DNA of 64,000 nt from Escherichia coli (GTDB lineage: Bacteria; Pseudomonadota; Gammaproteobacteria; Enterobacterales; Enterobacteriaceae): NCBI RefSeq assembly GCF_048403405.1, contig NZ_CP183129.1; one strand, 5' to 3'. Positions 3,001-6,000 of this stretch are shown piece by piece. Positions within the stretch are counted from its first letter, which is position 1. Each line of letters begins with the position of its first letter. A program made the position numbers.

Positions 3001-6000
3001 AAGGCGAGCGCCAGCGCCGTGTATGGCTGCCAGATAACGAAACTGGCTGGTACGATTTCTACAACGGCGAATGGTTCAGTGGCGGTCAGTGGATCACCCT
3101 CGACGCACCGCTGGAGAAACTGCCGCTGATGGTGCGTGCCGGGGCTGGTCTACCGCTCAGCAAACGCATCACCTATGTGAGCGCAGAACAAGACGATACC
3201 CGCGAACTGAAACTGTTCCCGCTGAAAGGTGTGGGCACAACGTCCGGCCTGCTGTTTGAAGACGATGGCGAAAGCTGGGGCTACCAAACTGGTAATGCGC
3301 TTTGGGTGGAATGGGAAATGGTTTGCGATGGGGCGACCATCAACCTGAAAGTCAACGCGCGCGGGGATTATCGACCTGCATGGAGTGCACTGAAAGTGTC
3401 ATTACCAGTGGAAGAAAAACGCACGCTGCTGGTCAATGGTGTTGAAGGGAGTGAATGGATGCGTTAAATCATTACCGGGGCCGGGAGGCGACTGCGCCTT
3501 ACCCGGTCCAGCCATCGAATCCTTTACCTCAGTATTTCACGCTGCAGGAAGGCAGCAAACCTGTAAACCCCGGGAGCTTAAATAAGTAAGTGACCGGGGT
3601 GAACAGGTGAAGCCAATGCATCTGCCGCATGAAAGACGGCGGGAAATTAACCGTCGATCCCTTTACTACGCAGGTAATCTTCGTAATTACCGCTAAAGTC
3701 GATCACGCGTTCCGGGGTGATTTCCAGAATTCGGGTCGCCAGGGAGCTTACAAACTCACGGTCGTGAGACACAAAGATCAGCGTGCCCTGATACAGTTCC
3801 AGCGCCATGTTCAGCGACTCAATAGATTCCATATCCAGGTGGTTGGTCGGTTCGTCCATGATCAGAATGTTCGGCTTCTGCATCATTAACTTACCAAACA
3901 GCATCCGCCCTTTTTCTCCACCGGAAAGCACTTTCGCTGGCTTTTTGATGTCGTCCTGGCTGAACAGCAAACGACCGAGAATGCTGCGTACCGCCTGCTC
4001 ATCATCGCCTTCCTGCTTCCACTGGCTCATCCATTCGAACACGGTCAGATCATTTTCAAACTCATATTCGTGGTCCTGGGCGTAGTAACCAATGCGTGCG
4101 TTTTCAGACCATTTTACGGTGCCGCTGTCCGGTTGCAGATCGCCCACCAGCGTTTTCAGCAGCGTTGATTTACCGACGCCGTTGGTACCCAGTACAGCCA
4201 GTTTTTCACCCACTTCCAGCAGCAGGTTGAGATTTTTAAACAGTGGACCGTTATCAAACCCTTTGGTCAGACCTTCCACTTCCAGCGCGTTACGGAACAG
4301 TTTCTTATCCTGTTCAAAACGGATGAACGGGTTCTGACGGCTGGAGGCTTTCACCTCTTCCAGTTTGATTTTATCAATCTGGCGCGCGCGCGAAGTTGCC
4401 TGGCGAGATTTCGAGGCGTTGGCGCTAAAGCGGCTAACGAAAGATTGCAGCTCAGCAATCTGCGCTTTCTTCTTGGCGTTATCAGCCAGCAGACGCTCAC
4501 GCGCCTGGGTCGCCGCCGTCATGTACTCATCGTAGTTACCTGGATAAACGCGCAGCTCGCCGTAATCCAGATCCGCCATGTGGGTACAAACCATGTTAAG
4601 GAAGTGACGGTCGTGCGAGATGATGATCATGGTGCTGTCACGCTCGTTCAGCACCTGTTCCAGCCAACGAATGGTGTCGATGTCGAGGTTGTTGGTCGGT
4701 TCGTCGAGCAGGAGAATGTCTGGATCAGCAAACAGCGCCTGCGCCAGCAGCACACGCAGCTTCCAGCCAGGAGCAACTTCACTCATCGGGCCGTAGTGCT
4801 GTTCCACTGGAATTCCCACGCCAAGCAACAGTTCACCGGCGCGAGCTTCCGCAGAGTAACCGTCCATTTCGCCGTATTTCACTTCCAGATCGGCCACTTT
4901 ATAGCCGTCTTCTTCACTCATTTCCGGCAAAGCATAGATGCGGTCACGCTCCTGTTTCACTTCCCACAACTCTTTATGCCCCATGATCACCGTATCCAAC
5001 ACAGTGAACTCTTCAAAGGCAAACTGATCCTGACGCAGCTTACCAATGCGCTCGTTGGGATCGAGGGAAACGTTACCCAACGTCGGCTCTAAGTCGCCGC
5101 CGAGGATCTTCATAAAGGTGGATTTACCACTACCGTTCGCGCCAATCAGGCCGTAACGGTTGCCGCCGCCAAATTTGACGGAAATGTTTTCAAACAACGG
5201 CTTACTGCCGAACTGCATGGTGACGTTACTGGAAACTAACACAGGCGTATCCTGAAAAGAGATATGACAAACCGCGCATTATGCCATAAGTCTGAAAGAA
5301 GATCCTGCTCCTCGCTTAAGGTCTACACTCAAGCCAAAGGCAAAAAATGTGATTTCGTACACATCTGATTTCACTGTGAGCAGGAATGAACTTATAATGC
5401 GCTTCCAATACTCTAATATTCTCAACCCAATGGCCTGCCAGGCACAAAATCTCGCTTAACATGAATATGAAATTGAAAACATTATTCGCAGCGGCCTTCG
5501 CTGTTGTCGGCTTTTGCAGTACCGCCTCTGCGGTAACTTATCCTCTGCCAACCGACGGGAGTCGCCTGGTTGGTCAGAATCAGGTGATCACCATTCCTGA
5601 AGGTAACACTCAGCCGCTGGAGTATTTTGCCGCCGAGTACCAGATGGGGCTTTCCAATATGATGGAAGCGAACCCGGGTGTGGATACCTTCCTGCCGAAA
5701 GGCGGTACTGTACTGAACATTCCGCAGCAGCTGATCCTGCCGGATACCGTTCATGAAGGCATCGTCATTAACAGTGCAGAGATGCGTCTGTATTACTATC
5801 CGAAAGGAACCAACACCGTTATCGTGCTGCCGATCGGCATTGGTCAGTTAGGCAAAGACACGCCTATCAACTGGACCACCAAAGTTGAGCGTAAAAAAGC
5901 AGGCCCGACCTGGACGCCGACCGCCAAAATGCACGCAGAGTACCGCGCTGCGGGCGAACCGCTTCCGGCTGTCGTTCCGGCAGGTCCGGATAACCCGATG

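What the first reader, a model, noticed from the sequence alone, without database searches (positions are those of the whole stretch)
3480..3640. Two ERIC copies, one at the boundary of the MFS/GH31 module
Intergenic sequences at 3480-3640 and 60400-60545 share the ERIC core (cttacataagtaagtgactggggtga). ERIC elements often sit at junctions between conserved and variable DNA; the first copy lies exactly between the putative accessory GH31 gene and ybiT. The two copies differ at several positions, so they are not recent duplicates.
Basis: seen in the sequence. Interest (0 to 1): 0.3.

Follow-up and report, generated by a model that had tools for sequence, protein, structure and literature searches.

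The report
Two old ERIC repeats after stop codons
Both sequences are real copies of ERIC, a well-known small palindromic repeat of enteric bacteria; the copy beside the sugar-utilisation genes is an ancient part of a gene arrangement that most E. coli strains lack, not a marker of newly acquired DNA.

Summary
Copy 2 (60418-60544) is a full 127-bp ERIC, 87% identical to the published E. coli consensus. It is present at the ybhI-ybhJ locus in 5332 of 5426 complete E. coli genomes, including K-12. Copy 1 is a 124-bp ERIC at 3523-3646, not 3480-3640. Copy 1 carries 2 mismatches in the quoted core. It still aligns to consensus positions 22-123 at 76.5% identity, and both flanks are significant without the core. 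It belongs to a different ERIC subtype (termini TTTCC...GGAAA), the same subtype as the ahpC and iscX copies of E. coli. It occurs in 575 of 5426 genomes, the same number that carry the LacI-MFS-GH31 module. That module is not an island: the order ybiU-lacI-MFS-GH31-ybiT-ldtB is conserved across many Enterobacteriaceae genera. An orthologous ERIC abuts the ybiT stop codon in Citrobacter, one Enterobacter, Kosakonia and Franconibacter. K-12-type strains carry a 240-bp REP-containing spacer instead. ERIC lies inside the missing segment, and nothing shows that it caused the polymorphism. Its hairpin is kept by compensatory changes, and it is 89-91% identical between E. coli and Citrobacter, against 47-63% at four-fold degenerate sites. 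This suggests a maintained 3'-UTR RNA hairpin. It is an ordinary element of low novelty.

The parts
3523..3646 (-). ERIC copy 1: a 124-bp imperfect palindrome of the TTTCC...GGAAA-terminus subtype. It directly abuts the ybiT stop codon, so the ybiT mRNA would carry the reverse complement of the + strand. It also lies 56 nt downstream of the convergent GH31 gene.
   Evidence: It is 76.5% identical to consensus positions 22-123, z = 28.7. The flanks alone are significant. It hits the ahpC and iscX ERICs. It is 89-91% identical to orthologous copies in Citrobacter. The RNA hairpin folds at -47.7 kcal/mol (- strand) and -52.7 kcal/mol (+ strand), z = -4.5 and -6.1.
3577..3602 (+). One of them (T to C in GACCGGGG) is matched by an A to G change in the opposite arm (CCCCGGG), which keeps the stem.
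   Evidence: pair 53/77: GC in 15 sequences, AU in 2.
3478..3509 (.). REP-like GC-rich hairpin just downstream of the GH31 stop codon. It is not part of ERIC. It resembles the Enterobacter/Citrobacter-type REP unit rather than the K-12 type.
   Evidence: Folds at -24.6 kcal/mol. Matches the REP of locus L006 at 24 of 27 positions; only a 12-nt stretch (11/12) aligns to the K-12 REP. A weak naRNA4 (REP-derived) Rfam hit has E = 7, which is not significant.
3647..3649 (-). ybiT stop codon (TAA), with no gap between it and the end of ERIC copy 1. The last two ybiT codons (3650-3655) differ from K-12: ...KGIDG* here against ...KGIE* in K-12.
3653..3654 (.). Right breakpoint of the E. coli presence/absence polymorphism. 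Homology with K-12-type genomes starts at 3654, 7 bp beyond the ERIC end and inside the last codons of ybiT.
   Evidence: Megablast alignments of 4848 genomes start at query position 755, which is window 3654.
60418..60544 (-). ERIC copy 2: a full-length 127-bp element with TATAC...GTATA termini. It lies one base from the ybhI stop codon (60546-60548) and upstream of ybhJ. The ybhI transcript would carry the reverse complement of the + strand.
   Evidence: It is 86.9% identical to the E. coli consensus and 91.3% to Salmonella SeRU-1, over positions 1-127. Hairpin -43.8 kcal/mol (- strand) and -50.2 kcal/mol (+ strand). Present at this locus in 5332 of 5426 genomes, including K-12. Sub-threshold match to Rfam V_AS5, E = 4.7e-6.
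60380..60401 (.). Perfect 8-bp hairpin (ctgcgcac-cgagaa-gtgcgcag) between ERIC copy 2 and the ybhJ ribosome-binding site. It is not part of ERIC and its role is unknown.
   Evidence: Read from the sequence. The scan does not score it as a terminator.

Best explanation
Both features are ERIC elements: enterobacterial repetitive intergenic consensus sequences, about 127-bp MITE-like imperfect palindromes. Both are old copies fixed in place, not recent insertions.

Each abuts the TAA stop codon of a minus-strand gene (ybiT, ybhI) in the same relative orientation. Each would therefore be transcribed as the first part of that gene's 3' untranslated region and fold into a long hairpin.

The most likely role (inferred, not shown here) is the one demonstrated for stop-codon-adjacent ERICs in Yersinia. 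There the co-transcribed element tunes the stability of the upstream mRNA. Ribosomes terminating next to it interfere with folding and expose an RNase E site in one terminal repeat. When folded, the hairpin would instead protect the 3' end.

For copy 1, the ERIC hairpin and the neighbouring REP-like hairpin are the only structured elements in the 179-bp spacer between convergent GH31 and ybiT. They probably also define the 3' ends of both transcripts.

Copy 1 is part of an ancestral ybiU-lacI-MFS-GH31-ERIC-ybiT arrangement. Most E. coli lack it and carry a 240-bp REP-containing spacer instead.
For: Shown:
- ERIC identity over the full length of both copies.
- Long hairpins on both strands, with z from -4.5 to -6.3.
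- In an alignment of 20 ERICs, 30 base pairs are 94.5% paired, against 23-44% when partners are slid. Fourteen pairs show changes on both sides, against 6.9 +/- 1.5 in shuffles, with 0 of 500 shuffles reaching the observed value.
- Copy 1 is orthologous to ERICs at the ybiT stop codon in Citrobacter (three species), one Enterobacter asburiae strain, Kosakonia and Franconibacter. Internally deleted remnants occur in Siccibacter and Silvania.
- Copy 1 is 89-91% identical between E. coli and Citrobacter. Four-fold degenerate sites of ybiT, GH31 and ldtB are 47-63% identical, and the adjacent spacer cannot be aligned.
- All four E. coli ERICs examined (ybiT, ybhI, ahpC, iscX) abut a TAA stop codon in the same orientation. 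ERICs lying 60-85 nt beyond the ybiW stop codon in other genera have the opposite orientation.
- The scan finds no canonical terminator or promoter in either spacer.

From the literature:
- ERICs are co-transcribed, and their effect on upstream mRNA stability through RNase E depends on orientation. This is De Gregorio et al. 2005 as summarised in PMC2229807, PMC3184786 and PMC10969869.

On the ancestry of the module:
- Synteny is conserved across the fetched loci from many genera.
- Module genes and flanking genes are similarly diverged from other genera.
- The flanks match K-12 at ordinary E. coli levels, roughly 96-100%, right up to the junctions.
Against: - There are no expression data for these loci. 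Co-transcription, RNase E cleavage and any effect on ybiT or ybhI mRNA are untested in E. coli.
- I could not read the Yersinia primary paper. The statement that stop-codon-adjacent elements share one orientation ('B') rests on my memory of its abstract. I could not confirm that the orientation seen here is the same one.
- The paired columns could be kept at the DNA level (terminal inverted repeats, cruciform, protein binding) rather than the RNA level.
- The high conservation could partly reflect homogenisation among ERIC copies.
- About 90% of E. coli do well without copy 1, and many genera have REP-type elements at the same site. Any function is therefore dispensable or replaceable.
Confidence: 0.55

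Rival explanations
1. ERIC copy 1 marks, or helped create, the junction between core DNA and an acquired accessory module. This is the first reader's reading: ERICs as recombination or insertion hot spots at conserved/variable boundaries.
For: The right edge of the E. coli presence/absence polymorphism (3653/3654) is only 7 bp from the ERIC end. ERIC-like elements have been noted in a plasticity region of Xenorhabdus (review PMC3184786). GH31 is more similar between this strain and Escherichia sp. MOD1-EC7003 (95.6% at four-fold sites) than the flanking ybiT and ldtB are (81-85%). The module has therefore moved by recombination within the genus.
Against: The ERIC lies inside the variable segment, not in the shared DNA. 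The left breakpoint, at the ybiU/lacI end, has no ERIC. The K-12 spacer contains no ERIC remnant: its alignment scores are matched or beaten by 38 to 243 of 500 shuffles. The whole arrangement, including ERIC at the ybiT stop codon, is shared with other genera. The breakpoint also coincides with the end of the ybiT gene, where selection would place it anyway. Copy 2 lies in DNA present in 98% of genomes.
Confidence: 0.1
2. Both copies are inert relics of a selfish MITE with no host function. The palindrome and the sequence conservation only reflect the element's own structure, occasional gene conversion among copies, or a locally low mutation rate.
For: ERICs are classed as MITE-like elements with terminal inverted repeats and TA at the termini (PMC2229807). 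Copy 1 is absent from about 90% of E. coli with no sign of a replacement ERIC. Other genera carry unrelated REP-type repeats at the same site. In Siccibacter and Silvania the element is internally deleted.
Against: Copy 1 is 89-91% identical between E. coli and Citrobacter, against 47-63% at four-fold sites of the neighbouring genes, and the adjoining spacer has turned over completely. Compensatory changes keep the stem. The orthologues share site-specific characters (AAACCTGT...ACAGGTGAAGCCAA) that the ahpC, iscX and ybhI copies lack. Conversion from other copies therefore does not explain the conservation.
Confidence: 0.25
3. The ERIC hairpins act mainly as transcription terminators or insulators. 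For copy 1 this would be between convergent GH31 and ybiT; for copy 2, between ybhI and ybhJ. They would not act on mRNA decay.
For: They are stable hairpins on both strands. Copy 1 sits in a convergent spacer with no other terminator. K-12-type strains have REP units plus another hairpin in the same place.
Against: No U-tract follows either hairpin on either strand, and the terminator scan finds nothing. Copy 2 lies between two co-directional genes, where full termination would cut off ybhJ unless ybhJ has its own promoter, and none was detected.
Confidence: 0.1

Closest known systems
ERIC / IRU / RU-1 elements of Enterobacteriaceae (Sharples & Lloyd 1990; Hulton et al. 1991; Wilson & Sharp 2006 consensus as printed in Delihas 2007, PMC2759123)
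   Same: Length of 124-127 bp, a conserved central inverted repeat, similarity to the consensus along the whole element, terminal inverted repeats, a long imperfect hairpin, an intergenic position within a likely transcription unit, and several copies per genome (a median of 7 places per genome detected with copy 1 as query).
   Different: Copy 1 belongs to a subtype whose termini read TTT(A/C)CC...GG(G/T)AAA instead of TATACCC...GGGTATA. It is only 68-76% identical to the E. coli consensus. Its core carries 3 mismatches to the ERIC2 PCR primer and 6 to ERIC1R (primer sequences recalled from memory). Copy 2 is a textbook copy.
Stop-codon-adjacent ERICs of Yersinia enterocolitica (De Gregorio et al. 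2005, known here only through reviews PMC2229807, PMC3184786, PMC10969869)
   Same: The element starts 0-1 nt after the stop codon of the upstream gene. All stop-adjacent copies seen here share one orientation. The RNA is predicted to form a hairpin.
   Different: No transcript or RNase E data exist for the E. coli copies. I could not verify that the orientation here equals the Yersinia 'B' orientation. Copy 1 sits between convergent genes, so there is no downstream co-transcribed gene.
REP / BIME elements of E. coli
   Same: The K-12 allele of the ybiU-ybiT spacer carries two inverted REP units in place of the module plus ERIC. The 3478-3509 hairpin in the window is REP-like. Both REP and ERIC elements are intergenic palindromes found in 3' untranslated regions.
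   Different: REP units are about 35 bp, GC-rich, and unrelated in sequence to ERIC. The ERIC copies show no similarity to the K-12 spacer.
Rfam RF02818 V_AS5 (Vibrio antisense RNA)
   Same: Copy 2 aligns to the whole model (positions 1-129 of 129) with E = 4.7e-6. This suggests that the Vibrio RNA is transcribed from an ERIC-like repeat.
   Different: The score is 34.9 bits against a gathering threshold of 96, so copy 2 is not a member. Copy 1 does not match.

Membership tests
ERIC (enterobacterial repetitive intergenic consensus) | Conserved central inverted-repeat core (…CTTACATAAGTAAGTGACTGGGGTGA…) | tested here: met
   Copy 2 matches 26 of 26 positions and copy 1 matches 24 of 26. Zero matches are expected by chance.
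ERIC (enterobacterial repetitive intergenic consensus) | Similarity to the 127-bp consensus beyond the core | tested here: met
   Copy 2 is 86.9% identical over positions 1-127. Copy 1 is 76.5% identical over positions 22-123, and the alignment extends to position 3 against Salmonella SeRU-1. With the core removed, the flanks reach their scores in 3 of 2000 and 0 of 2000 shuffles. Copy 1 finds the ahpC ERIC at E = 2e-14 and the iscX ERIC at E = 2e-12.
ERIC (enterobacterial repetitive intergenic consensus) | Length of about 127 bp with terminal inverted repeats; imperfect palindrome that folds into a long hairpin | tested here: met
   The copies are 124 and 127 bp. Minimum free energies are -44 to -53 kcal/mol, with z from -4.5 to -6.3. 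The terminal helix (columns 2-7 with 122-127) is 94% paired across 20 copies, and 4 of its 6 pairs show changes on both sides.
ERIC (enterobacterial repetitive intergenic consensus) | Intergenic position, multiple dispersed copies per genome | tested here: met
   Both copies lie between annotated genes. With copy 1 as query there is a median of 7 places per E. coli genome. With copy 2 under megablast the median is 5.
ERIC as a MITE | TA target-site duplication and filled versus empty sites that demonstrate insertion | tested here: inconclusive
   Copy 2 starts TA-TAC and ends GTA-TA, which is compatible with a TA duplication. No clean empty site was found for either copy. Species that lack ERIC at the ybiT stop codon carry unrelated repeats there, so the flanks cannot be aligned.
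ERIC as a MITE | Mobilisation by a transposase supplied in trans | not testable with these tools
   No partner transposase for ERIC is named in the reviews read. Both copies appear fixed in position.
Regulatory stop-codon-adjacent ERIC (Yersinia type) | Abuts or overlaps a stop codon, with a shared orientation among such copies | tested here: met
   The gap to the TAA stop codon is 0 nt for ybiT, ahpC and iscX and 1 nt for ybhI, and all four share one orientation. ERICs lying 60-85 nt from a stop codon are in the opposite orientation.
Regulatory stop-codon-adjacent ERIC (Yersinia type) | Co-transcription and RNase E-dependent destabilisation of the upstream mRNA | not testable with these tools
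   This needs RNA work. It is known only from reviews of De Gregorio et al. 2005.
REP/BIME (for the 3478-3509 hairpin only) | GC-rich palindrome of about 35 bp matching a REP consensus | tested here: inconclusive
   It matches a REP unit in the equivalent spacer of Enterobacter chuandaensis (L006) at 24 of 27 positions. No family-wide consensus or copy-number test was done.

The most novel reading that the evidence does not exclude
The ERIC at the ybiT stop codon may be an exapted MITE: a cis-acting RNA element in the 3' untranslated region of the ABC-F translation factor gene ybiT. It would have been kept by selection since before Escherichia, Citrobacter, Enterobacter and Kosakonia diverged. 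It evolves several-fold more slowly than synonymous sites, keeps its hairpin through compensatory changes, and is amplified to 2-5.5 tandem units in Franconibacter and Kosakonia. Its loss with the GH31 module in most E. coli would then have changed ybiT expression.
Probability: 0.25. Interest if true: 0.45.

Novelty: new member of a known kind. Interest (0 to 1): 0.18.

Why it matters
It matters little for discovery, but it is useful as a correction. A repeat that looks like a boundary marker of an accessory island is in fact part of an ancestral gene order. The 'accessory' LacI-MFS-GH31 module is conserved synteny that is missing from most E. coli. This case shows that presence/absence within one species can mislead about what was gained and what was lost. 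It also gives a clean natural example of an ERIC copy conserved across genera far beyond neutral expectation. Such a locus would suit a test of whether stop-codon-adjacent ERICs regulate mRNA stability in E. coli as reported for Yersinia. On the practical side, copy 1 mismatches the standard ERIC-PCR primers, so it should not contribute bands to ERIC-PCR fingerprints.

Tried and rejected
- ERIC remnant in the K-12 ybiU-ybiT spacer. Its GTCACCCCG...CGGGGTGAC hairpin looked suggestive. Local alignments with four ERIC queries on both strands scored no better than shuffles. Rejected.
- Further ERIC copies or fragments in the window. Weak scan scores near 16.1 kb and 51.6 kb gave blastn E >= 0.25. 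These are chance matches.
- Canonical sigma-70 promoters or intrinsic terminators in either spacer. None found.
- Rfam. There is no ERIC family. Only sub-threshold hits appeared: V_AS5 for copy 2, and CssrA (E = 0.04) and naRNA4 (E = 7) near copy 1.
- Recent horizontal acquisition of the module from another genus. No close donor exists among the species representatives. The best non-Escherichia GH31 is 91% identical at the protein level and 80-83% at the nucleotide level, like the flanking core genes. The flanks match K-12 at ordinary E. coli levels up to the junctions. Rejected for a cross-genus origin. Exchange within Escherichia is supported.
- Primary papers. De Gregorio et al. 2005 and Wilson & Sharp 2006 are not held in the library. 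The ERIC consensus came from Delihas 2007 instead.
- TA target-site duplication from filled versus empty sites. Not possible, because the empty sites carry other repeats.
- A simple ERIC-less allele at ybhI-ybhJ. Every chromosomal record in the evenly spaced samples (24 per search) covers the whole query, ERIC included, in one piece. I did not inspect the roughly 94 genomes lacking the locus match.
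Full report
**What the window is.** The window is Escherichia coli chromosome. The stretch around the first copy is 100% identical to strain CFSAN061763. It covers the K-12 region ybiT...ybhI in reverse orientation. RefSeq annotation of the matching genome gives the local order ybiW, ybiV, ybiU, a LacI-family regulator (opposite strand), an MFS transporter, a glycoside hydrolase family 31 protein, ybiT (opposite strand) and ldtB.

**Check of the observation.** It is exact at 60474-60499 and has two mismatches at 3577-3602. None is expected by chance.

I took the published 127-nt E. coli ERIC consensus (Wilson & Sharp 2006) and the Salmonella SeRU-1 copy from Table 1a of Delihas 2007 (PMC2759123).
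- Copy 2 aligns end to end (60418-60544) at 86.9% identity to the consensus and 91.3% to SeRU-1.
- Copy 1 aligns to consensus positions 22-123 (3543-3643) at 76.5% identity, z = 28.7. Against SeRU-1 the alignment reaches position 3, which is window 3525.
- With the core removed, the left and right flanks of copy 1 are still significant and in register: 3 of 2000 and 0 of 2000 shuffles reach the observed scores.
- Independently, a blastn search with copy 1 finds other E. coli ERICs downstream of ahpC (E = 2e-14) and iscX (E = 2e-12), over about 119 bp at 76.7% identity.

The coordinates need correcting.
- Copy 1 is 3523-3646 (124 bp).
- Positions 3478-3509 form a separate REP-like hairpin. It matches an Enterobacter-type REP unit at 24 of 27 positions.
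- No other ERIC is in the window.

**The two copies are different subtypes.** In a multiple alignment, copy 1 and copy 2 are about 60% identical.
- Copy 2 has the classical TATAC...GTATA termini.
- Copy 1, like the E. coli ahpC and iscX copies, has TTT(A/C)CC...GG(G/T)AAA termini.
- The statement 'not recent duplicates' is correct.
- Copy 1 has 3 and 6 mismatches to the usual ERIC2 and ERIC1R primers. Copy 2 has 0 and 1. The primer sequences are from memory.

**Distribution within E. coli.**
- The ybhI-ybhJ copy is present, with its flanks, in 5332 of 5426 complete genomes, including K-12.
- Copy 1 is present in 575 of 5426. That is the same number as the genomes that hold the GH31-ERIC-ybiT stretch.
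- All other genomes align only from window 3654 onward.
- K-12 has 240 bp between ybiU and ybiT instead. This spacer holds two inverted REP units and a further hairpin.
- The K-12 spacer has no detectable ERIC remnant.
- The flanks are about 96-100% identical to K-12 up to both junctions, so the boundaries are sharp.

**The module is not an island.** A scan of one genome per species with the GH31 protein returned 80 loci.
- In most Enterobacteriaceae among them the order is ybiU-lacI-MFS-GH31-ybiT-ldtB. These include Enterobacter, Citrobacter, Kluyvera, Klebsiella, Raoultella, Kosakonia, Pseudocitrobacter, Trabulsiella, Leclercia, Salmonella enterica subsp. diarizonae, Buttiauxella and Cedecea.
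- Nucleotide identity between the E. coli genes and these genera is 70-84% for the three module genes and 76-88% for ybiU, ybiT and ldtB. The module is as diverged as its core neighbours, and no close foreign donor exists.
- The K-12-type state is most simply a derived deletion or replacement.
- Within Escherichia there has been exchange. GH31 is 95.6% identical at four-fold sites between this strain and Escherichia sp. MOD1-EC7003, while the flanking ybiT and ldtB are 81-85%.

**The ERIC at the ybiT stop codon is old.** The same subtype, in the same orientation and directly abutting the ybiT stop codon, is found in several other taxa.
- Three Citrobacter species, at 88.5-90.8% identity to copy 1.
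- One Enterobacter asburiae strain.
- Enterobacter sp. Bisph1 and Kosakonia.
- Franconibacter pulveris.
- Siccibacter and Silvania, as internally deleted remnants.

Other genera carry unrelated REP-type repeats there, and the sequence to the left of the ERIC differs completely between genera.

Between E. coli and Citrobacter the ERIC is 89-91% identical. Four-fold degenerate sites of ybiT, GH31 and ldtB are only 47-63% identical, and whole-gene identities are 80-88%. The orthologues also share site-specific characters absent from other E. coli ERICs. This argues for descent from one insertion plus constraint, not conversion from other copies.

**Structure.** Both copies fold into long hairpins on either strand, at -44 to -53 kcal/mol with z from -4.5 to -6.3. 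I aligned 20 ERICs in the sense of the upstream gene's mRNA.
- The consensus structure has 30 pairs, and 94.5% of cells are paired.
- Paired cells drop to 23-44% when the partners are slid by 1-3 columns.
- Fourteen pairs show changes on both sides, against 6.9 +/- 1.5 in shuffles, with 0 of 500 shuffles reaching the observed value.
- One of the two core mismatches of copy 1 is one side of a compensated pair: CCCCA/TGGGG becomes CCCCG/CGGGG.

**Position and orientation.**
- Copy 1 ends at 3646 and the ybiT stop codon is 3647-3649.
- Copy 2 ends at 60544 and the ybhI stop codon is 60546-60548.
- The ahpC and iscX ERICs also touch their TAA stop codons. All four have the same orientation relative to the gene.
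- ERICs in the ybiW-ybiV spacer of Kosakonia and one Citrobacter lie 60-85 nt past the stop codon and have the opposite orientation.
- This fits what I recall from the abstract of De Gregorio et al. 2005, that stop-adjacent elements share one orientation. The paper is not held, so this is memory.
- The reviews I could read state three things. ERICs in Yersinia are co-transcribed. Upstream transcripts are destabilised through ribosome-dependent exposure of an RNase E site. Orientation is crucial (PMC2229807; PMC3184786; PMC10969869).
- Neither spacer has a canonical terminator or promoter.

**Mechanism proposed.** The following points are shown:
- Both features are ERICs.
- Both are old and fixed in position.
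- Their hairpin is conserved.
- They abut stop codons.

The following points are inferred:
- They are transcribed as the start of the 3' untranslated regions of ybiT and ybhI.
- They modulate the stability of the upstream mRNA in the Yersinia manner.
- Copy 1, with the REP-like hairpin, also shapes the 3' ends of the two convergent transcripts.

The rivals are an inert selfish relic, a terminator or insulator, and a rearrangement hot spot. They are weighed in the structured fields. The hot-spot reading is the weakest. The ERIC lies inside the missing segment, the other breakpoint has no ERIC, and the breakpoint also coincides with the end of the ybiT gene.

**Comparison with known elements, and novelty.**
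- Both are members of the ERIC family on every defining feature that could be tested.
- TA target-site duplication and mobilisation could not be tested.
- Copy 2 is the ordinary copy found in K-12.
- Copy 1 is a strain-variable copy of a known subtype. I could not check whether it is among the strain-specific ERICs listed by Wilson & Sharp 2006.
- Nothing here is new in kind.
- The modestly interesting points are the cross-genus conservation of one ERIC far above the neutral expectation, and the correction that the 'accessory' module is ancestral synteny.

**Verdict.** The feature is ordinary and of low interest.

Noticed in passing
L033 9479-10188 (Kosakonia quasisacchari); L065 about 9415-9800 (K. 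pseudosacchari); L043 about 9510-9775 (Franconibacter pulveris): ERIC units occur as head-to-tail tandem arrays between GH31 and ybiT. Kosakonia quasisacchari has 5.5 units of period 128 at 90% identity, K. pseudosacchari has 3 units, and F. pulveris has 2. In F. pulveris the repeated unit includes the last 12 nt of ybiT, so the array arose by segmental duplication rather than transposition.
   Followed up: partly
window 3478-3509: A REP-like GC-rich hairpin lies right after the GH31 stop codon. It matches an Enterobacter/Citrobacter-type REP unit at 24 of 27 positions and is unlike the K-12 REP type.
   Followed up: partly
window 1104-3467 vs L003 2439-4799, with flanks: GH31 is 95.6% identical at four-fold degenerate sites between this E. 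coli and Escherichia sp. MOD1-EC7003, but the adjacent ybiT and ldtB are only 81-85%. The module has therefore been exchanged within the genus more recently than its flanks diverged.
   Followed up: partly
L002 3757-3996 (K-12 ybiU-ybiT spacer): In K-12-type strains the 5.2-kb module plus ERIC is replaced by 240 bp. This spacer holds two inverted REP units and a perfect 9-bp-stem hairpin (GTCACCCCG...CGGGGTGAC) 10 nt from the ybiT stop codon. The last codons of ybiT differ between the alleles (KGIE* against KGIDG*).
   Followed up: yes
window 60380-60401: A perfect 8-bp-stem hairpin (ctgcgcac cgagaa gtgcgcag) lies between ERIC copy 2 and the ybhJ ribosome-binding site. No U-tract follows it and its role is unknown.
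   Followed up: no
window 60417-60540: ERIC copy 2 aligns to the full Rfam model V_AS5 (Vibrio antisense RNA, RF02818) at E = 4.7e-6 and 34.9 bits, well below the gathering score of 96. This suggests that the Vibrio RNA family was built on an ERIC-like repeat.
   Followed up: no
window 47128-47272 (- strand): A molybdenum cofactor riboswitch (RF01055, 103 bits, E = 1e-24) lies here. I expected one upstream of moaA (not checked in this window), and it is unrelated to the finding.
   Followed up: no
L033 1860-1970, L079 1858-1968, L040 1899-2004, L057 2141-2265: Further ERIC copies occur in other genera. In Kosakonia and Citrobacter sp. MGH106 they lie in the ybiW-ybiV spacer, 60-85 nt past the ybiW stop codon. 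Their orientation relative to transcription is opposite to that of the stop-codon-abutting copies. E. coli has none there. The Buttiauxella copy (L057) gave no YbiV or YbiW match and was not placed.
   Followed up: partly
L039 9389-9439 (Siccibacter turicensis); L045 about 9375-9430 (Silvania confinis): Internally deleted ERIC remnants lie at the ybiT stop codon. Silvania keeps little more than the two terminal repeats. In Siccibacter the centre has collapsed into a short perfect hairpin.
   Followed up: no
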